Shown: positions 1,011 through 19,057 of the stretch, piece after piece | Layout: every line of letters begins with the position of its first letter | Numbering within the stretch: position 1 is the first letter of the stretch | From: a virus | Lineage: Duplodnaviria > Heunggongvirae > Uroviricota > Caudoviricetes | Virus record (IMG/VR): IMGVR_UViG_2541047936_000004 | Reading direction: 5' to 3' (one strand) | Length of the DNA stretch: 21,784 nt | Program-made: the position numbers and the translations under genes | Notes under the pieces: model-generated | Told to the model about the DNA's origin: nothing | Seen by the model: only the letters and a program-made list of their open reading frames with translations | Databases searched by the model: none

Positions 1011-1028
1011 TTTTTTTGAGGGGGGGGG
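1011..1028 (+). repeat. Homopolymer tracts: T7 followed by G9, about 80 bp upstream of the iraM start
   Basis: Read directly: tttttttga then nine consecutive G at 1020-1028. Confidence 0.9.
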
Positions 1029-1429: not shown

Positions 1430-1485
1430 TGGGCTTCATATAAATATGCTCGATATGCTATTAATAATATCCACATAAATAAAAC

Positions 1486-1508
1486 AACGGGCGTGTTATA
1501 CGCCCGTT
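1486..1508. terminator. Rho-independent terminator between convergent icd 3' end and iraM
   Basis: Perfect 8-bp stem AACGGGCG/CGCCCGTT with a 7-nt loop; T-rich run on the minus strand immediately after the hairpin (plus-strand aaataaaa at 1478-1485), 24 nt downstream of the icd stop. Confidence 0.6.
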
Positions 1509-1531
1509 TCAATATTTAACACATGGAGAGA

Positions 1532-1696
1532 TTACATGTTTTCGATGATCGCTTCACCAAACTCTGAACATTTCAGCAGCTTAGCGCCTTCCATCAGACG
1601 TTCGAAGTCATAAGTTACGGTCTTGGCATTGATTGCGCCTTCCATACCTTTAACAATCAGGTCAGCCGCTTCAGTCCAACCCATATGGCGCAGCAG
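1532..1696 (-). pseudogene. icdC: Displaced 3' end of isocitrate dehydrogenase (icdC-like attachment-site scar), last ~53 codons plus stop
   Basis: Minus-strand translation [53 protein letters not shown] matches the Icd C-terminus as I recall it; the match ends abruptly upstream (HGFYIL does not match Icd), and there is no start codon or 5' part. Confidence 0.85.
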
Positions 1697-2396
1697 TATA
1701 TAAAAACCATGAATTCAAGTCATTGATATTTAACGATAAAAATTATTTTATTGTCTTTTTATTAGCCAAAATAAACTTTATTCAACCGTTTGATTTCATT
1801 GACGTTCGTTTTTATTTTGGGGAAAGGTTTTCTCTACCATTTATATCCAAATTACAAGTCTACATTTTATTAACATCTCAATACATGTGAGGCCTTGCAG
1901 ACCTTTGTGAGACCTTATGTGTCTCTGTTTTGTCCCAACTTATGTTAAGAGGCACATAATTAAAAATAAGATAACGATGCCGCCAAGCAGTGCAAAACCT
2001 TGTTTACTCCACGACTGTCTGCCCCATTATCTGCATACATAATTATCCTCCATAACTGAGATAAATGTCGGTTATGAGCGAACAACAGACGTTTAGTTTA
2101 TGATGGCTGTGTCTATACATTAAACATAACATCCATTACCGGCACCGCTTATTAATTGCTATCTGATATTGTCACTAAAAAAATAGGCATTCCCCGATAT
2201 AATAATCACAAAGAAGCTTTTGGTGCTGGCAATCGGTATACCTCATAGTGGACTGCGACTTTCCGGGCACGACAAGGATATATCAATGTATGAGCAGGAA
2301 AATTAGACCGTGGTGCGTCATATGATGACTAAGCACGGATAACAGCTACTTAATTGAAACTATTGATTATATTACAGCCAGTGCCTTATAGGATGG

Positions 2397-3518
2397 TTAG
2401 TCATCAACCGCGACTCCTGCACAATCATGGGCTATTGCCAGCAATTGTTTTTTAATTGCTTTAGCATCTACCGTCATATCTACTGTAGCAAAATGGATCT
2501 TATGTCCCTGAGTGACAACATACTCATTAAGCATATAGCCAACAGCTGGATGAAGTAGAAGACCAGCGGCATTGAGCGAAAGCGGATCCGTCTTGTTCTC
2601 CTGTGTTCTAAGGTAGGTATATAGCTGATAAATATAGCCATTACGTAGTGATTGCTCCCGATGCCAACCCTTTGTCAGAATCGAATTAAATTTGGTATCG
2701 ATAATAATACGCCGCTGGGCAGTCTTGTGTTCCAGAATAATGTCTGACTTCATTGTCGGGAAAATCTCTGCACTACCTGCACTTTGATCGCTCAACGCCC
2801 ATTTCAGCTCTTTCCCTGCAGAGACCTGCCAAGTTGTTTTGGCAAGGTGTACACGATATAAGCCAGCGATACCTTTTTCAAATAGTCTTCTCATCCAGTA
2901 AAGGTTATTTGAGGGCGCAGGTAAAAGATATTGGCCTTGATCTTCGGTCGGCATCAGCAGTTCAAAAGCTAATCGTGCGGCATCGACCATCGGTTTATCT
3001 GCGGCATCATGGCGTCCAAAACGCCACACTGAGGGTAATTCGCGGGGGGCAGGATATCCTCCATTTATCCCCTCACGGCGAAGTGATATTGCCATAAAAT
3101 GGCAATCTGCCGCCAAAGACGGTTTCACTATGATTGAGGCCAGACGTTCTAACGCACAGCGAACATAGCGATTTCGGGGGGTGTTGAGGGTTATGTCTTG
3201 AAAATGGCAGGCAACCTGTCCCCGTTCCAGCAGTTGATGACTGGCAGTATACAGTATGTCAATGCGCCCTCTCACCCGGTTCAGGGCCGCATGACAAGTT
3301 TGGTATCCCATATTTAAATTGCGACGTCGGCGCAGCGTAATCTCATGAAGGAGGATTGTCGCCACCAGGTCGGGGATTTCTGCTGGGTTATCTTCTACTG
3401 CGATCTGATTGCGCCCTAACTGGCGAAACAGATCTGAAGCGTACAGCATCAGCATCCAGATATTTCGCATGGGAATACGTGATGCTGTATGTTGCTCACT
3501 CCCGGTTATTGTCGTCAT
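2397..3518 (-). CDS. mcrC: McrC-family nuclease subunit of a McrBC-type (Type IV) restriction system
   Basis: 373-aa ORF colinear with K-12 McrC: MRNIWMLMLYAS vs VRNIYYMLTYA near the N-terminus, RIIIDTKF vs ILIVDAKYY (PD-D/ExK-type core), YIYQLYTYL vs LYQLMNYL, GLLLHPAV vs GLLIYPHV. Its ATG overlaps the mcrB stop (ATGA). Confidence 0.85.
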   Translation of the reverse strand: MTTITGSEQHTASRIPMRNIWMLMLYASDLFRQLGRNQIAVEDNPAEIPDLVATILLHEITLRRRRNLNMGYQTCHAALNRVRGRIDILYTASHQLLERGQVACHFQDITLNTPRNRYVRCALERLASIIVKPSLAADCHFMAISLRREGINGGYPAPRELPSVWRFGRHDAADKPMVDAARLAFELLMPTEDQGQYLLPAPSNNLYWMRRLFEKGIAGLYRVHLAKTTWQVSAGKELKWALSDQSAGSAEIFPTMKSDIILEHKTAQRRIIIDTKFNSILTKGWHREQSLRNGYIYQLYTYLRTQENKTDPLSLNAAGLLLHPAVGYMLNEYVVTQGHKIHFATVDMTVDAKAIKKQLLAIAHDCAGVAVDD

Positions 3519-5497
3519 TTTGCTAATAACACTTTTCTGGCTTCATCGACTTTATTTGGAGCATCGAACCAATATTCGGCGAGCAAAGGGCAGATCTCTG
3601 TATCAACGACTTGTTCATACCAAGCCTGGGCATCGTTGATTTTTTGGCCGATAGCTGGGGTGACATAGCTGTGACCGATACAAAACTGTGGTCCTAAGGT
3701 AACATCTTTTGCCAGCATATCGTTTAATACCGTCAGTCGAGATTTGATGAATGCTAACATGTCAAAATCAATTGCGTAATTATAATTTACCCAGTTTCTC
3801 CACGCGTCATTAAAAGCTGGCTTTAGATCGATAAACGCGAAACGACGGCGCAGCGCTAGGTCAAGTAGTGCGAGTGAGCGGTCTGCAATATTCATCGTAC
3901 CGATGATATATAGATTCTCAGGAATGTATATTTTTTCATCAGCATTTTTAGGATAGGAAAGAGATAATGCCTCAGTCGGCGTGCGTTTATCTGCTTCCAT
4001 CAACGTGAGTGTTTCACCGAAGATTTGCGCCGGATTGCCACGATTAATCTCTTCAATTATCACCACATATTTCGAGGTAGGATTATTGACTGCAGTTTTG
4101 ATTGCATTTACAAAAGGTCCATCAATTAGCGTCAATTGCCCTTCTTTACCTGGACGCCAGCCTCGAATAAAGTCTTCGTAAGAGAGGTTCGGGTGAAATT
4201 GCACCGCGCTAATACGCTCAGGTGCTTTTTCTCCCATCAAGCAGTACGCCAGACGTCGCGCTAACCAAGTTTTTCCAGTTCCGGGTGGTCCTTGTAATAT
4301 CAGGTTTTTCTTGTCGATCAGGCGCTGAAGTGTGAGTTGGATCTTAGCCTCTTCCAAGAAACAGCCATCCTGCACCAGATGACTGATGTCATAAGGAACG
4401 TGGGTGAGTTTTGGCAACAGCGCACTCTCTTCGACAGTTTCCTCAGTTATCGTCTGGGATTCGTTTTTCTCAAAATTCAGGTATTCATAATTTCCGGACT
4501 CGAGGGACTTTAACTCATCATCATTGCATAGTTTCTGTAGATAAAAGTAGATTGAGCTTGTAACAGTTTTGCTCTCAGGATGCTCTACCTTGAATACGTC
4601 CAAGTAGTTTTCTTCCAACTCCGAAGCAGTGAAATAAGGGCCATTTTTTTTCAGGCATAACGCCTTAATTTTATTCAGTAAAGAGGCTTTCCACGTTCTA
4701 TTTGCCACCTCATCTTTAGACTGGCTAAGATCTGTATTCCACGCTGATAAGGAAAGTTCTGGGAAAGAATGAACCGGATAGTTTGGTTGGGTAAAGACCT
4801 CGTTCAGCGCCCGCATAAGACTCAGGTAACTTTGTCCACTACAGCGACCTTTTGCCCCGTTTTTAATGATCTTAATGTTTAACACTGTCTGAATGTAATA
4901 CTGCGACTGGCTATCTAAAGTGGGGTAGAACCAAGGACGGGTCCAGTACAACCCCATGGTGAGATTCCAACCGACATTCATTACTGTAGAAGCGATGTCA
5001 TATGCGGCAGTGAAGTCTGCAGAGTTAGTATTCTGGTTATCCGCAAAGATCATTGCCTGTGAGAACATTTCCCACAAGCATTCAATGTCATTAGGGTCGC
5101 GTGACTTTTCATAACCAAAGAACCAAGATTTTTGGTTATTCAACAGAGGGATTCCGGCAAAGGAGTCAGGAATCGGTTCGTTCACGCCCAACAAATTCGC
5201 TAGCTTGGCAGCAATAATTTTGCGATTGCTGTCGGTCAAGTTACGATTGAACAAGCCCATAGTAGTAAACGGACAAATGTCTTTTAAGGGAAAGATCTCT
5301 CCCATAATAGATTTGTCCTGCAGATGGGACATTCCTTCCACACCCGAGGCAATTAGATGAATACCTTTGACTAATTCATCTCTACGATTTCGCCAAGTCA
5401 GTAACGCGTTGGCAAAAGCCTCATAAAAACTAGCCCAAGCAAACTTGCCATCATGTTCTGCTGTATCCACGGGAACTCCATTATACTTGTTGAGCAA
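3515..5497 (-). CDS. mcrB: McrB-family GTPase (AAA+) with a long N-terminal region of unknown type
   Basis: 660-aa ORF with a TTG start. Residues ~390-660 align with K-12 McrB: NLILQGPPGTGKTWLARRLAY, VQFHPNLSYEDFIRGWRP, MNIADRSLALLDLALRRRFAFIDL, IGHSY, PLLAEYWFD. The first ~385 residues do not resemble the K-12 McrB N-terminal domain as I recall it. Confidence 0.85.
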   Translation of the reverse strand: MLNKYNGVPVDTAEHDGKFAWASFYEAFANALLTWRNRRDELVKGIHLIASGVEGMSHLQDKSIMGEIFPLKDICPFTTMGLFNRNLTDSNRKIIAAKLANLLGVNEPIPDSFAGIPLLNNQKSWFFGYEKSRDPNDIECLWEMFSQAMIFADNQNTNSADFTAAYDIASTVMNVGWNLTMGLYWTRPWFYPTLDSQSQYYIQTVLNIKIIKNGAKGRCSGQSYLSLMRALNEVFTQPNYPVHSFPELSLSAWNTDLSQSKDEVANRTWKASLLNKIKALCLKKNGPYFTASELEENYLDVFKVEHPESKTVTSSIYFYLQKLCNDDELKSLESGNYEYLNFEKNESQTITEETVEESALLPKLTHVPYDISHLVQDGCFLEEAKIQLTLQRLIDKKNLILQGPPGTGKTWLARRLAYCLMGEKAPERISAVQFHPNLSYEDFIRGWRPGKEGQLTLIDGPFVNAIKTAVNNPTSKYVVIIEEINRGNPAQIFGETLTLMEADKRTPTEALSLSYPKNADEKIYIPENLYIIGTMNIADRSLALLDLALRRRFAFIDLKPAFNDAWRNWVNYNYAIDFDMLAFIKSRLTVLNDMLAKDVTLGPQFCIGHSYVTPAIGQKINDAQAWYEQVVDTEICPLLAEYWFDAPNKVDEARKVLLAK

Positions 5498-5830
5498 TGA
5501 TAATTTATCTGTGTGAGTTTTAACATATTACTATCAGTTATAGAAAAATTTAACTATCCGATACAGAGAGCGGAATGCTGAATTTGACCTGACTTGCTTC
5601 CAACCAATTAAAATCAACTTATTTATCAATTGGTTATTTTGGCACATGGCGGTCATCAAGGCAATATCGCGTTGTCATAAGGTGTCGAGGCTCGGAGGTT
5701 CAAATCCTCTCATACAAAAAATAAATAAAATTAATGACGGTTGGAAATTATTCAATACACTCTCGAAAGTACATCAGCCAACCGCAGCACGTTATTGCAT
5801 ATAACGTTTCTGCGGCATATCACAAAACTA

Positions 5831-6415
5831 TTATTCCATAACAGGGATTGCAGGCCACTCAATATCAGGTGCAGTTGATGTATCAACACGATTCAGCAAC
5901 ACCCGATACTTCTTCCAGGCTTCAAGCAACGAGGTTTCTTCCTCCGTTGCGATTTCCAGATCTGCAGCATCCTGAAGCGGGGCAATATGCTCACTGGCTA
6001 CCTGCATCAGGCTGTTTTTTGTTTCTTCCGCCTCCCGGATCCGGAACAGTTTTTCTGCTTCCGTATCCTTCACCCAGGCTGTGCCGTTCCACTTCTGAAA
6101 CTCCCCTTCCGGGGATAACCAGGTGATATTTTCCGGTAGAGGTCCGAGTTCAGAAATAAATAACGAGTCGCCGGAAGCCACGTCATAGACGGTTTTTCCC
6201 CGATGATCTTCAACGAGATGCCACGATGCCTCATCACTGTTGAAAACAGCCACGAAGCCTACCGGAATATCTGGCGGTGCAATATAGGTACTGTTTGCTG
6301 GCAGACCTGTATGAGGCGGAATATATGCGTCACCTTCACCAATAAATTCATTAGTTCCGGCCAGCAGATTATAAATTTTTATGGTCCGTGGTTGTTCACT
6401 CATTCTGAATGCCAT
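5831..6415 (-). CDS. tfa: Tail fibre assembly protein (lambda Tfa-like)
   Basis: 194-aa ORF nearly identical to my recollection of lambda Tfa ([43 protein letters not shown]...[11 protein letters not shown]); start overlaps the stf stop. Confidence 0.9.
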
Positions 6416-9264
6416 TATGCAAGCCTCACAATGTAGTTAAATGCGATGTTTTTGACGGTGTTTTCCGCGTTACCAGCAGCGTTAACGGTGATGGTGTGTC
6501 CATGTGAGCCAATCGCAACGGAGTGCGTATGAGCACCAATACCGACAGTATGTGCATGTGCGCCTGCGCTTGCAGCAGTGCCGGACAGCGAGTGGGTATG
6601 AGCACCATCTGATGATGTCTTCCCTGCATTACGAGTCTGGCCACTACCGCTTGTTGTGCTCATAATCCCCGCGCTTAGATTTGAAATCGCGGTATAACCA
6701 TTAGGGAAAATGCTCGTGTTCGTGCCACCAAATGCACCGGAACTCTTGTGTTGGTGCGCACCGGCACTATTTGCGGTCCCGCTAATACTATGGGTATGCG
6801 CCCCGGTGTTATTCGTGGATTTGGTTCCGTAATCAAACGACGATGTGGTTTTCGTCCCCAAATCCGTACTGGATGCGCTGGCGCTGTGGGTGTGCGATTT
6901 AATGCCGTCCTGTTCCTGAGACAATACGGCCCGACCACTGGCAGGTTTGCCCTTAATCGTCCAGCCACGCATATCAGGGATCACGCCTGACGGATAAGCG
7001 GCTGCAAGTTTCGGGTAAGCAGATTTGTCAAAAGTCTGCCCCTGCATCAGGGCATAACCAGACGGAACGGTATCTGATGGCCACGGGATTGGTGCGCCGA
7101 CTGGGTAGCTTTCTGGTGGAAGATTTTTCGAGGTATAAACTTCTGCCCAGCCTTCCTCAAAACCATAACCGTCTCTTGAAGAACGGTAGAACAGACCACC
7201 ATTTCTGTAATGCGCCTTCATCTGCAGGGTCCGGCAACTTCCGACTCCGGTATAGAAGTTAACCAGAATATAGCTGTCGCCAGAGCGGGTGACATTGTAA
7301 GCGCCTGATTCGGCATTCCAGGGAACGCCACCATCCGCATCGGCATATGTATCCGTTGCCCTTCTGGCAAAAGCAGCCACATGCGCGGCGGTTAAAGTAA
7401 TATCTTTGGAACCATCAAATGGAACACCGGATATTTTTCTTGCAGTCTGGAGTTTTGTAGCAGTTGCAGCATTACCAGTGGTGTTCTGATTACCCGTAGT
7501 GTTTACACCTGGAAGGTTAATATTTGCAGAACCGTCGAAAACAACTCCACCGATAGATCTTGCCGTCTGCAATTTCGTGGCTGTACTTGCATTACCATTC
7601 AATGAACCAGTTAATCCACCTGTAACAGACAACGGACCTGAAACTGTTCCTCCGGTTGTTGGCAGTGCTCCAATATCTGATGGTGTAGGTTTCTGATGTG
7701 AGCTATACATCGTATAAACAACACCATAGGTAACGCTGGAAGGCTTACTCGCTGAATATGTTGGCGAGGTATAAACAGAAACTGACGCATTTGCAGTACA
7801 ATCCCAATGGATATTTACACTCGTCGCATAATTGCCAATCTCAACGTAAATATCATATGTATCGCCGGATGTGTTGATCCAGGCGAAATTCGTTAATCCG
7901 ACGGCTGTACGCTTCCACAAAGCCCCGGTAATTCCTTTGGGGTTTCCATTGCCTGCTCGTAGAACCAGTTCTGAAATGCCTGCCTGATGTGGGGAACCGA
8001 CGTTGTAACCAGCGCCACCAATCAATGCGATGTAAACGATGGAACTCGCTTGTGGCATGGTAACCGTAGCCAGTTTGAACCACCCAGCCCCGCCAGAGAA
8101 AGACATCGTTACTGAATTTAAAGTACCAATATCTTTCGGCGTTAATGTTATATCCGCAGTCAGTGCTTTTCCGTTAACTTTTCGGTTAGATGGCACCCTG
8201 CTATTCGCATTGTCATTGGCTGCTTTAACTGCTTTTGGCGTTGCGGCCAGCGATTCACTGGTGCTATCAACAGCACTGCTAAGTTTCACAACACCTTTAG
8301 TTGTAAGGCTTGCGTCTTCCATCGCAACTGCACCGGCAATCTCTTCAGCACGATCAGCAGCAGCTTCCGCACGGGTCGCAGCGGATTCAGCAGTAGTTTT
8401 GCTCTGAGATGCCGCCGTCGCACTGCCAGCTGCCTCTGTCGCCTTCGTGGATGCTGTCGTGGCGCTGCCTTTCGCTGCTGATGCCTGTCTGCTCGCCTCA
8501 TCTTTTGAAGCAGACGCAGATGATGCCGATGACGCCGCCGAACTGGCGGACGATGCAGCTGCCATTTTTGAGGATTCTGCACTGGTTTCCGAGGCTTTCG
8601 CGTTCGTTTCGGATGTCTTCGCTGCGGATGCAGACCTCGCTGCTGCGCTGGCCTGTTCAGCGGCTTCGCCAGCCTTCGTTGTGGCTGTTGAAGCAGACGA
8701 TGCGGCGCTTTCTGCCGATTTTCCGGCGGCGGTGGCACTGGCTGAGGCCTGCCCGGCACTTGTTGACGCGGCACTGGCAGACGACGCAGCCGCTGTTTTT
8801 GAGCCTGCCGCAGCCGAGGCGCTCTGTCCCGCTGCCGTTTCAGAAGACCTGGCGTTTGTCTCAGACGTCTTTGCCGCCTTCGCGGAATTGCCTGCCGCCG
8901 TTGCCGAGGAAGCGGCACTACTGGCGCTTGATGATGCGTTCGTTTCTGATGATTTCGCTGCCTCTTTTGAGGCCGCCGCATCCCGGGCTGAGGTGGCTGC
9001 TTCTGACGCCTTCGTGGTCGCGGCGGATGCAGAAGTGGCTGCTGATTGTTGTGACGCTGCCGCATTCGTTTCTGACGTTTTCGCCGCACCGGCACTGGTA
9101 GCTGCCGCGCTTTTTGAGGACTCTGCAGCAGCACTTTTTGCTGCTTCACGGGCCTTTGTCGATGCCGTTCCTGCGCTGGAAGACGCTGACTGAGCCGACG
9201 ACGCGGCCTGTCCGGCTGACGTGCTGGCGGCACGTGCTGAGCCTGCAGCATCGGTTATTACCAC
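6415..9264 (-). CDS. stf: Side tail fibre protein (lambda Stf-like), N-terminally truncated
   Basis: 949-aa ORF. The Ala/Ser-rich periodic region (KTSETNA repeats), the middle [35 protein letters not shown] block and the His-rich C-terminus (GAHTHS...[31 protein letters not shown]) match lambda Stf. Homology begins at the position corresponding to about residue 145 of lambda Stf, and the upstream sequence is J-derived, so the first ATG is internal. Confidence 0.8.
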
Positions 9265-9282
9265 TTCCCGGATCGCTATACG

Positions 9283-10114
9283 CTATTCCGTTAAAGATAA
9301 TGGGCGGAATAATGATTTGACGGTCAAAGTTATGATCATCGCTGATGGTGACTGTAACCGTCCCGTTTGGTGTTTCCGTATTACCCCACGTACCAGCCTG
9401 TTTCGGGAATGATTTGGATACAGCTTTAACGAAGTCACCTCTGACCTGAGTCGCCTCCAGCATGCCCTTAATCGTACAGTTTTCATTTACCGTGACATTG
9501 TTGAGCGTCCCGGCGTTCGCATTCACACTGCCACTGATATCCGCATTTTTAGCGGTCAGCTTTCCGTCCGGTGTCAGGGAAAATGCCGGTGGATTTCCAC
9601 CGCTGGTAATGGTGGGGGCCGTCAGGCGTTTCAGGAACACGTCGTTCATGAATATCTGATCGCCCTGACCAACAAACATCGGTTTTGTGTTGCCATTCGC
9701 AGGATTAACCATCGCAATCCTGTCCGCCGCCAGCAGCACCTGACTCTGCATGCCGTCAGGGGTGTTCTCAATATCCACGATGGCCTCTTTTTCCGGTACA
9801 TGCTGCACGGCGGTGATGGCATACGTGCCGTCGTCGTTCTCACGGATACTCACGCAGCGGAACAGGCGCTGGCGCAACGTCGGCAGCTTCAGCCCCCATA
9901 CGCTGTATTCAGCAACGCCGTCAGGAACACGGCTCACTTTCACCTTCACGCCGTCGGTGACGGACTGAACCTCCACGCTGACCGGACTCCCCTGCCCGTC
10001 AACCAGGCTTATCAGCGTGGTGCCGGAAGATGGCAGCGTGATTTCACGGTCGAGCGTCAGCGTCCGGGTCTGGCTGTTTACCGCCAGCACGCGCCCGCCG
10101 GTGCGGATACCCAA
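9283..10114 (-). pseudogene. J: Remnant of tail tip/host-specificity protein J (C-terminal portion only)
   Basis: Minus-strand ORF contains lambda J C-terminal blocks ([102 protein letters not shown]). About 850 N-terminal codons are absent; the 3' end runs out of frame into stf. Confidence 0.7.
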
Positions 10115-10332
10115 GCTGGAGTGGCGAACGTTTTACCCTTGCTGATGAGGTATTCACTGATTTCGCTGTACCACATGTGGCTGAGTGCATTCTGGGAAAG
10201 ACTGCGTCTCTCGCGCCACGGTTTAAGCACCATGCGAAAGCATTTGCCGTCCTCCAGATAAGGCTGGATCTGCCGACCGATAGCGGTGAAGTTACCGCGA
10301 TGCAATTTGATACCATCTTGTGGGAGGTTCAC
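10115..10332 (-). pseudogene. N-terminal fragment of a NinB/Orf-like recombination protein, truncated at the junction with the J remnant
   Basis: GTG start with a GGAGGT Shine-Dalgarno sequence. The motif WRERRSLSQNALSHMW resembles the lambda NinB block ERNRSLDQNRKLWACL at a similar distance from the N-terminus. The reading frame then runs into J-derived sequence; the exact junction is unresolved. Confidence 0.3.
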
Positions 10333-10880
10333 GCTTCACCTCCGCAGAGATCAAACGCTGGATGCAAAATATCGCAGGTGCATTTCTGCATCTGTGAATG
10401 GAGAAGAGAGGTTGGATTGTATGTGCGCATAAACGTCCCCGTTTAGCGCAGAAGTCACCGGAGTTGTTCAGGCCCCAATGGCATGATTATGGCTGGTTGA
10501 TTATTGGAAATCAAATGTGCTGAAAATTAGTCTGCCAAGTCTTCCTCAGTCGCAACTGGGTAATTCCAAATATCAAAAAAAGCTATAGCCTCCTGCCATT
10601 TGCTCCATAAGTTATCAAGTACTTGTGTAGGTTCCGTACTTTTAAAAACAGAATCAGCCGCATCACCGTTATGAACTTCCTCGTACAGTTCCATTATTAG
10701 CAGATTAACAAAGTACTGTTTCAACATTAATGCCTGATTACCTTCTTTCTGCTGGCTATCCTGCTTGATGATCTCCATCGCCCGTACTAGGCACCTGATG
10801 ATATCCGCTGCATCATTAACGCTCCATGAACCGCCCCGGGAATCCTGGAGACTAAACTTCCTGAGAAAGAGGTAAACAGG

Positions 10881-11207
10881 ATGACTAAAAATACTCGTTT
10901 TTCCCCCGAAGTCCGTCAACGGGCAGTCCGTATGGTTCTGGAAAGTCAGGATGAATATGACTCACAGTGGGCGGCAATTTGTTCCATTGCCCCAAAGATT
11001 GGCTGTACGCCGGAGACTCTGCGTGTCTGGGTTCGCCAGCATGAGCGGGATACCGGGGGCGGTGATGGTGGGCTCACCAGCGCTGAACGTCAGCGTCTGA
11101 AAGAGCTGGAACGTGAAAATCGTGAACTGCGCCGCAGTAACGATATCCTTCGCCAGGCTTCCGCTTATTTTGCGAAGGCGGAGTTCGACCGCCTCTGGAA
11201 AAAATGA
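10881..11207 (+). CDS. IS629 OrfA (helix-turn-helix transposase N-terminal part)
   Basis: 108-aa ORF inside the IS; ends in an A-rich slippery region overlapping the orfB start. Confidence 0.85.
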
Positions 11208-12094
11208 TGCCACTGCTGGATAAGCTGCGTGAGCAGTACGGGGTCGGACCGGTATGCAGCGAACTGCATATTGCCCCGTCAACGTATTACCATTGTCAGC
11301 AACAGCGACATCATCCGGATAAACGCAGTGCCCGTGCGCAGCACGATGACTGGCTGAAGAGAGAGATACAGCGCGTATACGATGAAAATCATCAGGTGTA
11401 CGGTGTGCGTAAAGTCTGGCGTCAGTTGTTACGGGAAGGAATCAGGGTGGCCAGATGTACAGTGGCGCGCCTCATGGCGGTTATGGGACTTGCCGGTGTT
11501 CTCCGGGGTAAAAAGGTCCGTACGACCATCAGCCGGAAAGCCGTTGCCGCAGGCGACCGCGTAAACCGTCAGTTCGTGGCAGAACGACCTGACCAGCTGT
11601 GGGTGGCTGATTTTACTTACGTCAGCACATGGCGGGGCTTCGTCTATGTGGCGTTCATCATTGATGTGTTTGCCGGATACATCGTGGGGTGGCGGGTCTC
11701 ATCGTCCATGGAAACGACATTCGTGCTGGATGCACTGGAGCAGGCGTTATGGGCCCGTCGACCGTCCGGCACGGTCCATCACAGTGATAAAGGTTCTCAG
11801 TATGTATCGCTGGCCTACACACAGCGGCTTAAGGAAGCCGGATTACTGGCATCAACAGGAAGTACAGGCGACTCGTATGACAACGCGATGGCGGAGAGCA
11901 TCAATGGTCTTTACAAAGCGGAGGTAATACACCGTAAGAGCTGGAAAAACCGTGCAGAAGTGGAACTGGCCACACTCACGTGGGTGGACTGGTATAACAA
12001 TCGACGATTGCTGGAAAGGCTGGGCCATACTCCTCCGGCAGAAGCAGAAAAAGCTTATTATGCTTCCATCGGAAACGATGATCTGGCAGCCTGA
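11204..12094 (+). CDS. IS629 OrfB (DDE transposase catalytic part)
   Basis: 296-aa ORF in the -1 frame relative to orfA with an integrase-core-like sequence (HSDKGSQY...DNAMAES); identical copy at 19058-19948 on the minus strand. Confidence 0.85.
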
Positions 12095-12523
12095 GTTCAC
12101 AGATAAAACACTCTCCAGGAAACCCGGGGCGGTTCACCATTCAGATCCGCGCTTATCTTTAGCTGATGAATTGGCTCTCTCAGCGCAAGCCTTTAAAGAC
12201 TCATAAAGGTAAACTCTATTTTGTAGCTGCAGCGCTTTTTTTGACGTGTACCAACTTGCAAGCGCCGACCCCGCTGCGGCTAATGTGCCAAACGCAGAAA
12301 TACCTGCTGCTATTGCACTTAAGTCGGCACTGTCAAAGTTCCACATCATCGTTACACCTTATATAAATACCCCTCAGTAATATCCAATAAGGTATGTGCA
12401 CAATCAATATAATTTTATCCGTATCGGCACATAGCGATTTGAACGCTACTGGTAATGGTATATTTTAGATTATATCGTCCAGTTTACAGCACCCGTATTT
12501 TATGAAATGGACTCGCATATTAC

Positions 12524-12563
12524 CCAAAAAATGCCAGCACTTCCGTCATCGTAGAATGCTGGC
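12524..12563 (-). terminator. Probable rho-independent terminator downstream of the 99-aa ORF and recombinase
   Basis: Hairpin gccagcac(ttc)...(gaa)tgctggc at 12533-12563 (7-bp perfect stem, extendable to ~10 bp with one bulge), followed on the minus strand by a T6 run (plus-strand aaaaaa at 12525-12530). Confidence 0.45.
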
Positions 12564-12607
12564 AGTATTTCTAACTAGTGACTTTATTGGAACAGATTCT
12601 GACGGAA

Positions 12608-12907
12608 TTATGGTAACACTCGACTCCACTTATCATCCAGCCACGGCTGGAATTTTACATGTGCCGTTTCTCTGGCGAGGATTGCTCGCGCTCTGTTGAG
12701 TATCTGGGGATATTCTTGCTCGATAGAAGTAAAGCGGCCGGCTTCGCGGTGCTCCGCAACCTGAAGTAGTGGAGTAACGTTCTGGCAGGCAGTTAACATC
12801 ACATCACCTGCTCGCCATAACCAAGCACGTGCACAAAGTTTGTTATCAGTGAATTGTTTTGTGATTGGGTATTGTTGAACTGCTAGAACGAGAACGCCAG
12901 CATCCAT
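12608..12907 (-). CDS. Hypothetical 99-aa protein
   Basis: ORF between the recombinase gene and the IS-split gene, with a plausible AGGGA ribosome-binding site; no family recognised. Confidence 0.35.
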   Translation of the reverse strand: MDAGVLVLAVQQYPITKQFTDNKLCARAWLWRAGDVMLTACQNVTPLLQVAEHREAGRFTSIEQEYPQILNRARAILARETAHVKFQPWLDDKWSRVLP

Positions 12908-13018
12908 TGGCAGTCCCTATAGTAAAACCATAGCTCAGGACGCTTCGTTCAGGATAGATAATTTTATTGTACTTACCTAACTTTCTTACTATAGCACGGT
13001 TGAAAAAGTGATTATTAC

Positions 13019-14545
13019 TCAAAAATAAACCTCACCATCAACCATATATTTGAGAGTACTTATCGCCTGCTGGGCGGATATTGTTTTCATTAAAGGATAG
13101 TGTTTAAAAACAATGCCATTCATAAAATAGATATCACAGGTTTTATTATCTGTATTGATTATGATTTTTTCGAATGTTTTATAGGCAAGTGTACGACATA
13201 GCTCTCGCCCATTTTTACTGGTTAAGTCAATAGCATGAAAATCACCAAGTGAACTCACCGCTTTACTCTTCAAAGTTTTTAATGATACAGAAGCCCTTCG
13301 TAATTCCTTATCTAATACTCTGATTTTTTCTGCTATAGCGGTAACTTCAGGCGCAACAGATAATGCAGCAATTAAATTATTAATTTTCATCTGGAGCTCA
13401 ATAATTTTCAACTCTAAAGTTTCATTAGCATCTTTCTTGTTTTCAACTGGTTGGATTTTACTACAATTAAAAAGCAACTCATTAATGATATTATAATCAA
13501 CCAAATCTCTCTTTATTGATGGCCTGTCACATCGATGCAGTCTTCTCATCGGACAAACATAATAGCCATGCAAACTTCCAGATACCGCATGAACAATCAT
13601 GGTATTACCACAAGCCTCGCACTTCATAACTGTTCGAAGTAGATTTATCAACATAGGATTTTTGCTACTATTGCTAATACCAAAAGGTGCCAACCGAATT
13701 TCCTGCACAGCGTAAAACAAATCATCTGATATGACTCTGGGATAATAGCCAGCGATTTCACTTATTCCTTTACCTCTTGCACGATATGAAGGTACGCATA
13801 TACCTATCAGAGCTTTATTCGCTAATAATTTTTCAATTACAGAAGGTCCCCATGCACTTTCTTTTCCTGAGAAATTCTTTACAGCATGATCATTTAAATA
13901 CTTGGCTATTGCATTCAATGAGCGCCTTTCCATCCTGAGTTTAAAAATTAGCTCAATAGTTTTCACCCTGTCGGGGTCTGGAACAAAAGCCGTTCTTTTG
14001 TCATCCAATGAGAGCCATCTCGGACAAGACGCCGTCATAATCGTGCCTGACTCCAGTGCATCCTGCCGTTTTTTCTTCCATGATAATTTAACCCGACTTG
14101 ACTTTATCTCGCTTTCTTCATTTGCCCTTTGTGCTATAAGTATGGCTTTTATTAATGAATATGGCTCATTCAATGAGTCAATATTATAGACTGTATTATC
14201 GCAAAGAGTTATAACATCAATACCGTGATTCAAAATCAATTTCAGACGCTCAATCGCCTCACCGACTTTTTCTCTTGAAAGTCTGTCCAGACTTTCAACT
14301 AACAATGTAGTCCCTGGCAATATATAACCATGTTCTATAGCATCTAAAAATTCCGAAAAAGCTCCTGATTGTGCATGCTTTCCATTGAATGCGCTTAACC
14401 CCAAATCTTCATACGTTACGGTATCAAGGTAATAATCACTATTTACCTTTAGCCATTCAGTAATAAGCCTTCTCTGGCGGTTTAATGAATCACCAGACAT
14501 CTGACTTGGTGATGAAAATCGCATATATGCTATGGCTTTTTTCAT
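13019..14545 (-). CDS. ybcK: Large serine recombinase (YbcK-like)
   Basis: 508-aa ORF with an N-terminal resolvase-type motif (AIAYMRFSSPSQ, catalytic Ser context), a long recombinase domain and a Cys-rich segment (CEACGN...YYVCPMRRLHRC). It lies directly downstream of emrE, as ybcK does in K-12 DLP12, and has the same length as I recall for YbcK. Confidence 0.75.
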   Translation of the reverse strand: MKKAIAYMRFSSPSQMSGDSLNRQRRLITEWLKVNSDYYLDTVTYEDLGLSAFNGKHAQSGAFSEFLDAIEHGYILPGTTLLVESLDRLSREKVGEAIERLKLILNHGIDVITLCDNTVYNIDSLNEPYSLIKAILIAQRANEESEIKSSRVKLSWKKKRQDALESGTIMTASCPRWLSLDDKRTAFVPDPDRVKTIELIFKLRMERRSLNAIAKYLNDHAVKNFSGKESAWGPSVIEKLLANKALIGICVPSYRARGKGISEIAGYYPRVISDDLFYAVQEIRLAPFGISNSSKNPMLINLLRTVMKCEACGNTMIVHAVSGSLHGYYVCPMRRLHRCDRPSIKRDLVDYNIINELLFNCSKIQPVENKKDANETLELKIIELQMKINNLIAALSVAPEVTAIAEKIRVLDKELRRASVSLKTLKSKAVSSLGDFHAIDLTSKNGRELCRTLAYKTFEKIIINTDNKTCDIYFMNGIVFKHYPLMKTISAQQAISTLKYMVDGEVYF

Positions 14546-14800
14546 GGTGACACCTGCTAAAGTATGCTTTTATAAACCTTAGTGGTGAGATATGATTTTT
14601 GTTTAATTTTTATTTAAAAAGACAATTAAGGTCACATTATCTTGAATATACAACAATAATCGTATTGCAATTTTCTTACACCATAATCTTGAAAGCACAA
14701 AAGAATGAATAAAAACTAAAGACATTAACAAAAAGCATAAAACGAGGCCCATATAAATATACGAGCCTCCATATTTTAGTCGTTTAAAAACAAATTATTT

Positions 14801-15133
14801 TTAATGTGGTGTGCTTCGTGACAATAAATTAATAACCAACACACCGGCACAAATCAACATCATGCCTATAATGGCTGGCAGGTCCAACCGTTGGCCGAAA
14901 AATCCCCATGATAGTAAGCTAATCAGGACAATACCGACTCCTGACCAGATAGCATAAGCAATCCCTGTAGGAATATAAGCCAGCGTCTGAGCTAATAACC
15001 AGAATGATGCACAATAACAAATAATTGTACCAACAGATGGCCATAACCGTGTAAAACCTTCTGAAAACTTCATTAAGGTTGTACCAATGACCTCTGCAAG
15101 TATTGCACCACCAAGATAAATATAAGGATTCAT
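14801..15133 (-). CDS. emrE: Small multidrug resistance efflux transporter EmrE
   Basis: 110-aa protein MNPYIYLGGAILAEVIGTTLMKFSEGF...LSRSTPH matches EmrE as I recall it. The track ORF extends 18 codons further upstream; I trimmed to the canonical ATG, which has an AGGA upstream. Confidence 0.9.
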   Translation of the reverse strand: MNPYIYLGGAILAEVIGTTLMKFSEGFTRLWPSVGTIICYCASFWLLAQTLAYIPTGIAYAIWSGVGIVLISLLSWGFFGQRLDLPAIIGMMLICAGVLVINLLSRSTPH

Positions 15134-15200
15134 AGCATATTCTTTCCTGTTCAAACTGGAGAGAATTGTACTACAGTTTGAACTCAACTCACCTGTTTCA

Positions 15201-15503
15201 TCATTGTGTACCCATTGATGTTCTTTTATATACCCTCAATACCCGTTTCATCGCGGCACTCTGGCGACACTCCTTAAAAATCAAATTCGTGCTCACCTTT
15301 CCTTCCCATTCTTCTCTGGTAGCGAACCGATAATACACCGTTCGCCAGACCTTACCATCAACGACTAGGATTCCTGCCCGCGCCATTTTAGCCGCAGCCT
15401 GATTTATGCTGGTTACCGTTGCGCCTGTTACCGCGGCAACGTCCTGCGCACAGAATTTCTTATGAGTCCCCAGGTAATGAATAATTGACTCTTTGCCCGT
15501 CAT
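15201..15503 (-). CDS. ren: Lambda Ren-like protein
   Basis: MTGKESIIHYLGTHKKFCAQDVAAVTGATVTSINQAAAKMARAGILVVDGKVWRTVYYRFATREE matches lambda Ren closely; overlaps the P stop. Confidence 0.85.
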   Translation of the reverse strand: MTGKESIIHYLGTHKKFCAQDVAAVTGATVTSINQAAAKMARAGILVVDGKVWRTVYYRFATREEWEGKVSTNLIFKECRQSAAMKRVLRVYKRTSMGTQ

Positions 15504-16201
15504 ACCCTTGCTCCTTTCAGCCCAAACTTAGCTTTGATTTCTGCGATCTTCGCCAGAGCCTGTGCACGATTTAGAGGTCTACCGCCCATGACAGGAAGTT
15601 GTTTTACTGGTTCAGGTATAGCCTCACCACGGTTAATTCGTGCGGTCATACAGGACAGTTCATCGGCAGCCTTGCGCCGTAATTCCGCGTCAGTCAACGC
15701 ATTGGCCCGCATGTTCTGATACAGGTTGGTAACCAGCCAGTAGTGCGCGTTTGATTTCCACGGATAAGACTCTGCATCCGGATACAGCCCGCGCTTCCGG
15801 CAATACTCGTAAACCATATCAACCAGCTCGCTGGCGTTTGGCAGCCCGGCGGTAACGGATGCTTCTTCCCGGCACCAGGCGACAAACTGCCCGGGTGATG
15901 GCAGGAATGGTCGATTCTGCCGACGGGCTACGCGCATTCCAGCGTTAACCTGTTCCATTGTGGTGATCCCGTTTTCCCGAAAAGCCAGCACCCACTGGCG
16001 GCGGATTTCGTTCAGTTCATTCTGGTCACGGTTAGCCAGGCTCGCCGGGAAAGTTGCCAGTAACTGGCTGAACACACCGTTGATGATCTGCGCTACCTGC
16101 TGTACCTGTGGCTTTTCGTCGTACTGTTCCGGCATGTTGTTGGCGATCCGACGCATCTGCTCACGGTCAAAGTTAACCATCTGTGCGGCGATGTTTTTCA
16201 T
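15500..16201 (-). CDS. P: Replication protein P (lambda P-like, DnaB loader)
   Basis: 233-aa ORF essentially colinear with lambda P (MKNIAAQMVNFDREQMRRIANNMPEQYDEK...AKFGLKGA), with the same length. Confidence 0.9.
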   Translation of the reverse strand: MKNIAAQMVNFDREQMRRIANNMPEQYDEKPQVQQVAQIINGVFSQLLATFPASLANRDQNELNEIRRQWVLAFRENGITTMEQVNAGMRVARRQNRPFLPSPGQFVAWCREEASVTAGLPNASELVDMVYEYCRKRGLYPDAESYPWKSNAHYWLVTNLYQNMRANALTDAELRRKAADELSCMTARINRGEAIPEPVKQLPVMGGRPLNRAQALAKIAEIKAKFGLKGARV

Positions 16202-16440
16202 AGATCCACCCCGTAAATCCAGTCAGTGTTTGTCAGGTCGAGTTTTGGTTTGCCGACTGTCACGCCAGCCTGTTGCTTGTTCCGGTTGATTTCGAGCTGG
16301 GTCCACTTGTCGCGGAGTTTGGCCGGACTCAGCACGTTACCGGACCAGAAGTTGTCCTGGCAGGCCCAGCGGAACAGTACACACATGTCGCGGTGGTTAC
16401 GTCCATCACGTTCACGCATCAGACGGATATCGTTACCGGG
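16198..16440 (-). pseudogene. O: Replication protein O, C-terminal fragment only
   Basis: The minus-strand ORF ends ...[56 protein letters not shown], which is the lambda O C-terminus. The N-terminal origin-binding part is absent; the upstream boundary is the exo junction. Confidence 0.8.
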
Positions 16441-17088
16441 ATCGACGTGAGAGCTGTCGAACAGGGGGATGATGCGTGGCACAAATTACGGCTCGGCGTC
16501 ATCACCGCTTCAGAAGTTCACAACGTGATAGCAAAGCCCCGCTCAGGAAAGAAGTGGCCTGACATGAAAATGTCCTACTTCCACACCCTGCTTGCCGAGG
16601 TTTGCACCGGTGTGGCTCCGGAAGTTAACGCTAAAGCACTGGCCTGGGGAAAACAGTACGAGAACGACGCCAGAACCCTGTTTGAGTTCACTTCCGGCGT
16701 AAATGTTATTGAATCCCCGATCATCTATCGCGACGAAAGTATGCGCACCGCCTGCTCTCCCGATGGTTTATGCAGTGACGGCAATGGCCTTGAACTGAAA
16801 TGCCCGTTTACCTCCCGGGATTTCATGAAGTTCCGGCTCGGTGGTTTCGAGGCCATAAAGTCGGCTTACATGGCCCAGGTGCAGTACAGCATGTGGGTGA
16901 CGCGAAAAGATGCCTGGTACTTTGCCAACTATGACCCGCGTATGAAGCGTGAAGGCCTGCATTATGTCGTGGTTGAGCGGGATGAAAAGTACATGGCGAA
17001 TTTTGACGAGATGGTGCCGGAGTTCATCGAAAAAATGGACGAGGCACTGGCTGAAATTGGTTTTGTATTTGGGGAGCAATGGCGATGA
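16430..17088 (+). pseudogene. exo: Lambda exonuclease (Exo/RedA), lacking its start and first ~10 codons
   Basis: [56 protein letters not shown]...[14 protein letters not shown] is colinear with lambda Exo from about residue 10 to the end. The apparent N-terminal 55 codons of the track ORF are antisense O sequence. Confidence 0.85.
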
Positions 17089-17243
17089 CGCATCCTCACG
17101 ATAATATCCGGGTAGGCGCGATCACTTTCGTCTACTCCATTACAAAGCGAGGCTGGGTATTTCCCGGCCTTTCTGTTATCAGAAATCCACTGAAAGCACA
17201 GCGGCTGGCTGAGAAGATAAATAACAAACAGGAGGATATATGA
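17085..17243 (+). CDS. Possible 52-codon small ORF translationally coupled between exo and the DGQHR gene
   Basis: Its ATG overlaps the exo stop (ATGA), its TGA overlaps the DGQHR ATG (ATGA), there are no internal stops, and GGGGAG lies 8 nt upstream. Product [52 protein letters not shown]. Below the track's length threshold. Confidence 0.3.
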
Positions 17244-18304
17244 GTCAGGTTGGTAATCATTCATTCGAATTTCCGGCATCGCAAGGTGTACAGGGTGGTA
17301 CTGTTACACTCTTCCTTACCATACCAGGAAGATCGCTGGCTCGTTTCCTCGCTTCAGATAATTACGGCCATACACTGGAACGCTCTCAGCGAGAAATTAA
17401 TCCAAATCGAGTACGAAAATTTTTAAATTATCTCACTAACGCAGACTCAAGAAATGAGCCTTTTATCATTCCCCCTCTCGTAGGTAACTGTGATTCGAAT
17501 ATAGAATTTGTACCGTTTGGCAACACAAATGTTGGTATAGCCAGAATTCCCCTCGACGCCGAAATAAAACTTTTTGATGGTCAACATCGTGCAGCTGGCA
17601 TTGAGATATTTTGCCGAAGTTCCCCATCAACGCTCATGGTTCCCATGATGCTTACAATGAATCTGCCGCTAAAAACCCGGCAGCAGTTCTTTTCGGACAT
17701 AAATAACAACGTTTCTAAGCCATCAGCGACCATCAATATGGCGTATAACGGCCGGGATGATATTGCTCAGGGAATGATATCCTTCCTGACCCAACATACT
17801 GTATTTGCCGATATAACCGATTTTGAACACAACGTAGTGCCATTAAAAAGTAATATGTGGGTGAGTTTCAAGGCACTCACTGATGCAACGTCAAAGTTCG
17901 CTAGGAACGGCAATCAACAACTTGAAATGGGATATATAGAATCTGTCTGGGAGGCATGGATTACACTAACTCAGATTGACTCAATCCGACATGGTGTACA
18001 CCACGCTACGTACAAGCGCGATTATATTCAGTTCCATGGAGTAATGATTAACGCTTTCGGTTTTGCGGTTCAACAGATGATGGTTAATCATTCCATCGCA
18101 GAAATAACTTCTATGATCGAAAAACTATGTGCAACTACCAGCTCTGCAGAAAGAGAGGATTTTTTTCTGATGGATAACTGGGCGGGGATCTGCACGAAAG
18201 CCAGCCAGGAAAAACTATCTGTTATTGCCAATGTGGCAGCGCAGAAAGCAGCAGCAAACAGACTGATACAAGCTTTTACCAAAGGAAGTCTGGAAACAAC
18301 TTAA
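17240..18304 (+). CDS. DGQHR-domain protein (DndB-like), solitary
   Basis: 354-aa ORF with a strong ribosome-binding site (CAGGAGGA-N5-ATG). It contains the exact motif FDGQHRAAGIE at residues ~112-122 and a downstream QQFFSDINNN block, consistent with the DGQHR/DndB family as I recall it. No dndACDE-like genes are nearby. Confidence 0.7.
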   Translation: MSQVGNHSFEFPASQGVQGGTVTLFLTIPGRSLARFLASDNYGHTLERSQREINPNRVRKFLNYLTNADSRNEPFIIPPLVGNCDSNIEFVPFGNTNVGIARIPLDAEIKLFDGQHRAAGIEIFCRSSPSTLMVPMMLTMNLPLKTRQQFFSDINNNVSKPSATINMAYNGRDDIAQGMISFLTQHTVFADITDFEHNVVPLKSNMWVSFKALTDATSKFARNGNQQLEMGYIESVWEAWITLTQIDSIRHGVHHATYKRDYIQFHGVMINAFGFAVQQMMVNHSIAEITSMIEKLCATTSSAEREDFFLMDNWAGICTKASQEKLSVIANVAAQKAAANRLIQAFTKGSLETT

Positions 18305-18457
18305 TGAATCAACATTGTCTCATATCAGCATGCTGTACGGCGTCTTTAAGGAACGGTGAGCATGAAAAACAAAATCATCATGGAGCTACAGGCTCCTTTT
18401 TTATTATTCGCATTCACCCTCAAGCGTATTAACCAACAATTCAGGGATTAATGAAAG

Positions 18458-18676
18458 ATGGCAGACATCATTGATTCAGCATCAGAAATTGAAGAATTAC
18501 AGCGCAACACAGCAATAAAAATGCGCCGCCTGAACCACCAGGCTATATCTGCCACTCATTGTTGTGAGTGTGGCGATCCGATAGATGAACGAAGACGCCT
18601 GGCCGTTCAGGGTTGTCGGACTTGTGCAAGTTGCCAGGAGGAGATCGAACTTAAGAACAAACAATGGGGACTGTGA
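18458..18676 (+). CDS. TraR/DksA-family C4 zinc-finger protein
   Basis: 72-aa ORF with CxxC-N17-CxxC (CCECGDPIDERRRLAVQGCRTCASC), typical of phage and plasmid TraR-like proteins. Confidence 0.65.
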   Translation: MADIIDSASEIEELQRNTAIKMRRLNHQAISATHCCECGDPIDERRRLAVQGCRTCASCQEEIELKNKQWGL

Positions 18677-18723
18677 TGGCTTCAAAGCAGCAAATTTCAA
18701 CATCGTCCAACTGAGGTGTAAAA

Positions 18724-18963
18724 ATGTTCAGAATCATTTTTCCTAACACCTGGTACGTCGACCACCACGGCACTCCCTGCAAAATCCTGCGTTCTACCCA
18801 CAACAAAGTTCACTACATCCGAAAAGGCAGAACATGTATCGCCAGCATGTTCCGCTTTAATCATGACTTTGAACCTGTGAATAAAGCTGATGCAGATCGG
18901 ATAGCAGAAGAGATCGAAACGGCAGAACACATTAAGAAGTTACGTGCCATACGCAGGAAATAG
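18724..18963 (+). CDS. Hypothetical 79-aa protein
   Basis: ORF in the same orientation as the early-left operon, ending 52 bp before IS629 copy 2; no family recognised. Confidence 0.35.
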   Translation: MFRIIFPNTWYVDHHGTPCKILRSTHNKVHYIRKGRTCIASMFRFNHDFEPVNKADADRIAEEIETAEHIKKLRAIRRK

Positions 18964-19057
18964 AAAAATTGATAAATTCAATACTGCATTACTCAGCATT
19001 AAATTTATCTCTATGTGAACCGCCCCGGGTTTCCTGGAGAGTGTTTTATCTGTGAAC

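What the first reader, a model, noticed from the sequence alone, without database searches (positions are those of the whole stretch)
1478..1700. Displaced icd 3' end with its native terminator marks the attR side of an icd-integrating prophage
The 165-bp icd tail agrees with the known behaviour of e14 and phage 21-type elements, which integrate in icd and supply a replacement 3' end. This copy encodes Glu where the Icd C-terminus I recall has Asp at two positions (MEGAK and GEAIIENM), which would fit a host-derived versus phage-derived allele difference. The homology breakpoint near 1696 locates the att core.
Basis: partly seen in the sequence, partly recalled or inferred. Interest (0 to 1): 0.35.

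Follow-up and report, generated by a model that had tools for sequence, protein, structure and literature searches.

The report
Leftover icd gene end beside prophage
This is the well-known "icdC" scar: the original last 164 bases of the E. coli isocitrate dehydrogenase gene, pushed aside when a phage-21-type prophage inserted into the gene and supplied its own replacement end, so it is real but ordinary.

Summary
On the minus strand, window 1532-1695 holds the last 164 nt of icd. It is identical to the K-12 icdC pseudogene and is followed by an intrinsic terminator (stem 1486-1508, U-tract to 1476) and by the chromosomal genes iraM and ycgX. At 1695/1696 icd homology stops. The next 205 nt (1696-1900) match the P arm of the phage 21 attP (189/205) and contain an arm-type site. 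[quoted passage not shown] So this is attR (P-O-B') of a decayed, IS-riddled phage-21-type prophage, not e14. The functional icd lies just outside the window. In near-identical genomes it starts 114 bp past int and carries a phage-type tail.

Two refinements:
The sister genomes' functional tail reads MEGAK...GDAIIKNM.
- Phage 21 attP carries its own copy of the terminator, so the terminator alone does not mark the host copy.

This exact tail ends the intact icd in several genomes with an empty site.

The feature is already known (Hill 1989; phage 21/e14 literature). Interest is low.

The parts
1476..1531 (-). icd 3' untranslated region with an intrinsic terminator: stem 1486-1508, loop 1495-1499, U-tract 1476-1485
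   Evidence: Terminator scan. RNA fold -22.6 kcal/mol, z = -4.2. Identical to the K-12 icdC flank and to the sequence after intact icd in empty-site genomes.
1532..1695 (-). Displaced icd 3' end (icdC-type pseudogene): 54 codons plus stop, lacking the first base of the Met codon. Encodes (M)LRHMGW...MEGAK...GEAIIENM*
   Evidence: Translation. 164/164 identical to K-12 icdC; 12 differences from K-12 icd and 13 from the functional tail of sister genome E2.
1686..1695 (-). Core block TGCTGCGCCA. It is bounded by the phage arm on one side and by the first attL/attR mismatch on the other, so the crossover must lie here. Identity with the phage 21 attP itself runs 16 nt, 1680-1695.
   Evidence: Alignments of attR, attL and attP.
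1696..1900 (-). P arm of a phage-21-type attP, including one arm-type site CTTTCCCCAAAA at 1815-1826
   Evidence: 189/205 identical, without gaps, to the phage 21 (OL657228) attP arm; 41% to icd 5' sequence. The arm-site consensus comes from the OL657228 annotation and is matched at 1815-1826.
1696..21784 (.). Body of the decayed lambdoid prophage. Contents: McrBC-type pair, tfa/stf, J fragment, NinB fragment, large serine recombinase, emrE, ren, P, O fragment, exo, DndB-like gene, xis, int, and two IS3-family insertions.
   Evidence: RefSeq annotation of the collinear E2 locus. Window-versus-E2 blast. Pfam/PADLOC.
20416..20652 (+). xis, excisionase
   Evidence: 78/78 aa identical to phage 21 Xis.
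20642..21784 (+). int, tyrosine integrase of phage 21 type. The window ends at its stop codon; attL and the functional icd lie just beyond.
   Evidence: 378/380 aa identical to phage 21 Int; 60% to e14 IntE. In E2 the icd stop codon is 114 bp past int.

Best explanation
Window 1476-1695 (minus strand) is the resident 3' end of icd with its terminator, separated from the rest of the gene by Campbell-type integration of a phage-21-type lambdoid phage.

The phage attP has the layout P arm - core - its own copy of the last 164 nt of icd plus terminator - P' arm - int. Int-mediated exchange within the core TGCTGCGCCA joined icd's 5' part to the phage-borne tail. That junction is attL. It keeps isocitrate dehydrogenase intact and lies just outside the window, next to int. 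The chromosome's own tail was left behind the P arm as a promoterless, N-terminally truncated pseudogene (attR, P-O-B'), still attached to iraM/ycgX.

Shown here: the sequence identities, the junction, the phage 21 arm and the int/xis identity. Also shown in sister genomes: the layout of attL, and the empty-site allele. Inferred: the integration event itself, and that Int and Xis could still excise the roughly 20-kb remnant.
For: - The tail is 164/164 identical to K-12 icdC, and its downstream flank is identical too.
- A terminator is present and folds well.
- Positions 1696-1900 match the phage 21 attP P arm at 189/205, including an arm-type site.
- Int is 378/380 and Xis 78/78 identical to phage 21.
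- Genome E2 is collinear with the window apart from two IS copies. It has int, then a P' arm 79/79 identical to phage 21, then a terminator, then a phage-type tail fused to intact icd.
- The attL and attR repeats share 217 nt at 92.6% identity.
- A reconstructed empty site (icd 5' part + this tail + iraM flank) occurs as one uninterrupted 100% match in several genomes. At 80% coverage or more it is found in 3016 of 5426 complete E. coli genomes.
- The literature describes the same mechanism for e14 and for phage 21 (PMC6379469 and PMC13626634, both citing Hill et al. 1989; PMC12803456 for the phage 21 site in icd).
Against: - The window stops at the int stop codon, so attL and the functional icd of this particular genome were not seen. 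No genome in the collection carries both IS insertions.
- The attP of this exact prophage is not available. Phage 21 proper has T where the sister genomes' attL has C at core+10, so the 10-nt crossover bound assumes the incoming phage carried that C.
- A phage-21-like tail sits on an intact icd at an empty site in CUVET21-1780. The 'resident' tail displaced here could therefore itself descend from an earlier phage.
Confidence: 0.95

Rival explanations
1. The stretch is the end of the intact, functional icd gene rather than a scar.
For: The tail is identical to the tail that ends the intact icd in empty-site genomes.
Against: Upstream of 1695 the sequence is 92% identical to the phage 21 P arm and only 41% to icd. 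An in-frame stop lies 8 codons upstream, with four more beyond it. Sister genomes have the complete 416-codon icd about 20 kb away, next to int.
Confidence: 0.01
2. The element is e14 itself, as in K-12, and this is K-12-type icdC next to mcrA.
For: The tail and chromosomal flank are identical to K-12 icdC. e14 uses the same site (PMC12803456).
Against: The phage-side flank differs completely from K-12's e14 flank: TATATAC versus TAACTAA and beyond. Int is only 60% identical to IntE but 99% to phage 21 Int. Gene content is lambda-like (exo, P, ren, stf/tfa) with McrBC in place of mcrA.
Confidence: 0.01
3. The displaced tail is not the ancestral bacterial allele. It is the tail supplied by an earlier icd-integrating phage, so the scar records at least two rounds of occupancy.
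For: An empty-site genome carries a phage-21-like tail on intact icd, so phage tails do get left behind. The adjoining iraM-ymgK module is bracketed by two copies of the icd terminator region and is missing from other E. coli. iraM homologues (72.6% nt identity) sit on Stx2 phages. ycgX is a DUF1398 gene with prophage paralogues (PMC3509220).
Against: iraM-less genomes carry the same 'native' form of the terminator next to their tail, which also fits a simple host origin. The tail is the commonest partner of empty sites at 100% identity. No outgroup species could be examined, because the one genome-contig scan returned only Escherichia.
Confidence: 0.2

Closest known systems
icdC (b4519) at the attR end of cryptic prophage e14 in E. 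coli K-12 (Hill, Gray & Brody 1989)
   Same: The 164-nt tail, terminator and chromosomal flank (iraM, ymgK, ymgL, ycgX) are identical. The position relative to the prophage is the same. The logic is the same: the phage supplies a replacement 3' end.
   Different: The neighbouring prophage is not e14. The P-arm sequence differs, Int is 60% identical, and the cargo next to attR is an McrBC-type pair rather than mcrA.
Phage 21 attP / int-xis module (M61865, OL657228) and phage-21-site prophages such as NC-SV
   Same: Int is 378/380 and Xis 78/78 identical. The P arm is 189/205 identical with the arm-type site CTTTCCCCAAAA. The same core lies in icd. In sister genomes the P' arm is 79/79 identical.
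   Different: The prophage body is a decayed mosaic of about 17.5 kb plus two IS copies, lacking head, most tail and lysis genes. Its b-region equivalent holds McrBC, not the sitABCD of phage 21. The sister genomes' phage-supplied tail differs from the phage 21 tail at 10/164 nt.
Integrative elements that insert in the 3' end of a gene and carry a replacement end (for example tRNA-gene integrators such as DLP12 in argU)
   Same: Partial duplication of the target's 3' end forms imperfect attL/attR repeats. The target gene stays functional (PMC6379469).
   Different: The target is a protein-coding gene. The duplicated segment is long (217 nt including the terminator) and differs at synonymous and two non-synonymous sites.

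Membership tests
icdC-type displaced icd 3' end at attR of a phage 21/e14-class prophage | Sequence homologous to the last ~165 bp of icd, ending at the icd stop codon | tested here: met
   164/164 identical to K-12 icdC; 152/164 to K-12 icd. Translation.
icdC-type displaced icd 3' end at attR of a phage 21/e14-class prophage | icd homology ends abruptly at the att core and is replaced by phage (P arm) DNA, not by the icd 5' part | tested here: met
   Breakpoint at 1695/1696. Positions 1696-1900 are 92% identical to the phage 21 P arm and 41% to icd 5' sequence, and contain in-frame stops.
icdC-type displaced icd 3' end at attR of a phage 21/e14-class prophage | The distal side of the fragment continues into the chromosomal flank found after intact icd in empty-site strains | tested here: met
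   The reconstructed attB is found at 100% identity in one piece in several genomes. It is contiguous in 3016 of 5426 genomes.
icdC-type displaced icd 3' end at attR of a phage 21/e14-class prophage | An integrase of the phage 21/e14 group lies at the opposite end of the inserted DNA | tested here: met
   Int at 20642-21784 is 378/380 identical to phage 21 Int. Xis is 78/78.
icdC-type displaced icd 3' end at attR of a phage 21/e14-class prophage | Functional icd at attL is completed by a phage-borne tail in direct repeat with the scar | tested here: inconclusive
   attL lies outside the window. The feature is met in the collinear sister genome E2: an icd of 1251 bp with a phage-type tail, and a 217-nt repeat at 92.6% identity.
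icdC-type displaced icd 3' end at attR of a phage 21/e14-class prophage | Int/Xis-dependent excision restores icd with the scar's tail | not testable with these tools
   This needs induction and junction PCR. It has been reported for e14 (PMC13626634 and PMC6379469, citing Hill 1989).
Rho-independent (intrinsic) terminator | GC-rich hairpin immediately followed by a U-tract, downstream of the stop codon on the coding strand | tested here: met
   9-bp stem with 6 GC pairs, tail GUUUUAUUUA, stem starting 24 nt after the stop codon. Termination activity was not tested.
e14 element | e14 IntE and the e14-specific arm flanking icdC | tested here: not met
   60% Int identity. The phage-side flank is unrelated to K-12's.

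The most novel reading that the evidence does not exclude
The DNA just outside the scar may record an older, different integration. The 0.86-kb iraM-ymgK module (window about 664-1480) is bracketed by two direct copies of the icd terminator region. The copy at 616-663 is diverged and no longer folds. The copy at 1481-1525 is the native form. The two share an identical block, AAAACAACGG, at their left edge. E. coli lacking iraM have a single terminator that joins the ymgL flank directly to the icd tail.

This is the attL/attR pattern expected if a small phage-derived module used the icd terminator, not the phage 21/e14 core, as its attachment site. On that reading the icd 3' region would be a stacked hotspot with two distinct att sites. 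The alternative is that iraM-less strains arose by deletion between the two repeats.
Probability: 0.3. Interest if true: 0.3.

Novelty: already known. Interest (0 to 1): 0.08.

Why it matters
The scar precisely marks one end of a phage-21-type cryptic prophage. It explains why icd stays functional despite insertion inside the gene, and it accounts for the apparent allele differences at the Icd C-terminus. That is useful for annotation, for prophage boundary calling and for reading icd MLST alleles, but it adds nothing new to what has been known for e14 and phage 21 since 1989-1997. The only mildly new material is incidental: the terminator-bracketed iraM module, the McrBC cargo, and a phage-type tail at an empty site.

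Tried and rejected
- Primary papers: I tried to read Hill et al. 1989 (PMC210168), Wang H. et al. 1997 (PMC179457) and Mehta et al. 2004 (PMC331406). None is held. The published overlap and core coordinates could therefore not be quoted. The mechanism is cited through PMC6379469, PMC13626634 and PMC12803456 instead.\n- Outgroup test: I spent the single genome-contig scan on a degenerate terminator pattern, hoping to see the second terminator copy after an intact icd in other species. It returned only E. coli, one Escherichia sp. with a phage-type attL remnant, and two MAG contigs labelled Sutterella and Veillonella that I did not examine. No outgroup test was possible.\n- Remnant icd coding sequence next to the 616-663 terminator copy: low-stringency blast found similarity only across the terminator region itself (43-63 nt). 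No icd coding remnant was detected.\n- Exact source genome: none in the collection has both IS copies. The best is Z1323HEC0011, with one.\n- McrBC cargo in deposited phages: no phage record holds it. Only the tfa/stf part matches lambda-like phages.\n- Rejected readings: intact icd; e14 identity; chance similarity.

Full report
**What is in the sequence**

The window is E. coli chromosome. Its first 2400 nt match 5426 of 5426 complete E. coli genomes somewhere, and 481 genomes over at least 80% of the length. RefSeq annotation of a 100%-identical genome (strain E2, locus L001) reads, in order: ycgX, ymgL, ymgK, iraM, an 'isocitrate/isopropylmalate family dehydrogenase, incomplete, missing N-terminus' pseudogene, then mcrC and prophage genes as far as xis and int, then icd.

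Translating the minus strand of 1532-1702 gives [56 protein letters not shown].

I aligned this stretch with K-12 icdC, K-12 icd and the functional icd of E2:
- Window 1532-1695 and the downstream flank are identical to K-12 icdC (164/164).
- They differ from K-12 functional icd at 12 positions. Two are non-synonymous, giving MDGAK vs MEGAK and GDAIIENM vs GEAIIENM.

The terminator lies on the minus strand. It has a 9-bp stem at 1486-1508, a 5-nt loop and the tail GUUUUAUUUA. It folds at -22.6 kcal/mol with z = -4.2. The finding's coordinates (1478-1700) fit the feature, which I place at 1476-1695.

**It is a scar, not the gene**

Beyond 1695 there is no icd. Translating further upstream in the tail's frame meets a stop 8 codons before LLRHMGW and four more within 1696-1900.

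Window 1696-1900 aligns without gaps to the P arm of the phage 21 attP (OL657228) at 189/205. The alignment runs right up to ...TTTTTATATAC|TGCTGCGCCA. The same stretch is 41% identical to the icd 5' region, which is background level. It contains one exact match, at 1815-1826, to the arm-type consensus YYTTCCCCAAAA given in the phage 21 record.

At the right end of the window, the xis product is 78/78 and the int product 378/380 identical to phage 21. Int is only 60% identical to e14 IntE. So the element is phage-21-type, not e14. By the lambda convention, where int is adjacent to attL (B-O-P'), the junction at 1695/1696 is attR (P-O-B').

**The other end of the element**

The window stops exactly at the int stop codon, so attL is not visible. 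Strain E2 is collinear with the window at 99.93-99.99% identity, apart from two IS insertions that the window has and E2 lacks.

In E2, the following lie after int, in order:
- a P' arm 79/79 identical to phage 21, including three TTCCCCAAAA sites;
- a terminator;
- a tail fused to an intact 1251-bp icd, whose stop codon is 114 bp from int.

That functional tail differs from the scar at 13/164 nt and reads MEGAK...GDAIIKNM. attL and attR share 217 nt at 92.6% identity, made up of the 164-nt tail plus 53 nt that include the terminator.

The left edge of this homology is TGCTGCGCCA (window 1686-1695). The first attL/attR mismatch is the next base. The exchange must therefore have occurred within those 10 nt, provided the incoming phage carried the C seen at attL. 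Phage 21 itself matches the host for 16 nt (1680-1695).

**Is the scar the resident allele?**

I built an empty-site sequence from 400 nt of icd upstream of the core, the window tail and the iraM flank, and searched the 5426 complete genomes with it. It occurs at 100% identity in one uninterrupted piece in several genomes. It occurs at 80% coverage or more in 3016 genomes. So this tail does terminate the intact gene where the site is empty.

One nuance: strain CUVET21-1780 has an empty site (icd contiguous with iraM) but a phage-21-like tail, GDAIIKNM with phage-type synonymous markers. The simplest reading is prophage loss by recombination in the distal part of the 217-nt repeat. Tails are therefore exchanged between phage and host over time, and 'host-derived' means 'resident at the time of integration'.

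A second nuance: the phage 21 attP carries its own near-identical terminator. The terminator does not by itself identify the host copy. The flanks do.

**Mechanism**

Campbell integration by a tyrosine integrase at a core inside icd, with the phage supplying a replacement 3' end and terminator so that isocitrate dehydrogenase stays functional. The displaced end becomes a truncated pseudogene with no start codon of its own.

The same mechanism is described for e14 (PMC6379469 and PMC13626634, both citing Hill et al. 1989). Phage 21 is stated to use an attachment site within icd (PMC12803456, citing Wang H. et al. 1997).

- Shown here: all the sequence relationships.
- Inferred: the historical event.
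- Inferred: intact int, xis and both cores would still allow excision.

**The surrounding prophage**

The prophage is a decayed mosaic:
- a McrC-family protein (2397-3518) and a 660-aa AAA_5 McrB-like ATPase (3515-5497) directly inside attR, where e14 carries mcrA;
- tfa/stf, a J fragment and a NinB fragment;
- a large serine recombinase (13019-14545) and emrE;
- ren, P, an O fragment and exo;
- a DndB-like protein (17240-18304), then xis and int.

No deposited phage carries the McrBC segment. Two 100%-identical IS3-family copies in inverted orientation (about 10828-12136 and 19016-20326) are absent from E2.

**A side observation outside the finding**

A second, diverged copy of the icd terminator region lies at 616-663. 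It is 84% identical to 1481-1523 and no longer folds (z = 0.0).

In E. coli lacking iraM (N1420, DA33135), the ymgL flank runs directly into a single terminator of the native form and then the icd tail. The 0.86-kb iraM-ymgK module is therefore bracketed by imperfect direct repeats of the terminator, with an identical block AAAACAACGG at the left edge of both copies.

A divergent iraM-positive genome keeps a better-preserved second copy. iraM homologues at 72.6% nt identity sit on Stx2 phages. ycgX is a DUF1398 gene with prophage paralogues (PMC3509220).

This fits an older phage-derived insertion at the terminator. It also fits loss of iraM by deletion between the repeats. I could not test outgroups, because the one genome-contig scan was uninformative.

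**Verdict**

The feature is already known and is routinely annotated. Interest is low.

Noticed in passing
window 616-663 versus 1481-1525, with the module at about 664-1480 between them: A second, decayed copy of the icd terminator region (84% identity, no longer folds) lies 865 bp further out. The iraM-ymgK module is therefore bracketed by imperfect direct repeats. E. coli lacking iraM (L009, L010) have one native-form terminator joining the ymgL flank to the icd tail. This could be the att scar of an older insertion, or the substrate for deletion of iraM.
   Followed up: partly
window 2397-5497 (minus strand): A McrC-family protein (373 aa) and a 660-aa AAA_5 McrB-like ATPase with a long N-terminal region sit immediately inside attR. 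This is the position where e14 carries mcrA and phage 21 carries sitABCD. No deposited phage genome matches this segment.
   Followed up: partly
window about 10828-12136 (+) and about 19016-20326 (-): Two 100%-identical IS3-family insertions of about 1.31 kb (ORFs of 108 and 296 aa) lie in inverted orientation. They are absent from otherwise identical genomes such as E2. No genome in the collection has both copies.
   Followed up: partly
L011 (CUVET21-1780) 1640-1960: This genome has an empty icd site (icd contiguous with iraM), yet its functional icd carries a phage-21-like tail (GDAIIKNM with phage-type synonymous sites). The likely cause is prophage loss by recombination in the distal part of the attL/attR repeat, which leaves the phage tail behind.
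   Followed up: partly
window 1020-1028: A G9 homopolymer preceded by T7 lies about 80 bp upstream of the iraM start codon. It is G8 in K-12 and GGGAG in CUVET21-1780, so it is a length-variable tract that might affect iraM expression.
   Followed up: partly
window 1106-1429 (iraM): iraM homologues at 72.6% nt identity over 327 nt are carried by many Stx2-converting lambdoid phages (for example phages 2851 and 1717). This is consistent with a phage-moron origin for iraM.
   Followed up: partly
window 17240-18304 (+): A DndB/DGQHR-domain protein (Pfam DndB E = 4e-46; PADLOC DndB) is encoded alone between exo and xis, with no other dnd genes visible nearby.
   Followed up: no
window 13019-14545 (-) and about 14801-15133 (-): A 508-aa large serine recombinase lies next to emrE inside the prophage. 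In some sister genomes the recombinase is annotated ybcK. From memory, not checked here, ybcK and emrE are also neighbours in the DLP12 prophage of K-12.
   Followed up: no
L012 (RIVM_C037134) 3380-3480: In this iraM-less genome an IS200C sits between icd and ymgL. The icd terminator hairpin has its loop in the reverse-complement orientation (GTTAT instead of ATAAC) with the same stem.
   Followed up: no
L007 (Escherichia sp. MOD1-EC7003) 780-870: An intact icd carries a phage-type tail and terminator, followed by only part of a phage-21-like P' arm and no recognisable integrase ORF. This looks like an attL remnant of a deleted prophage in another Escherichia lineage.
   Followed up: no
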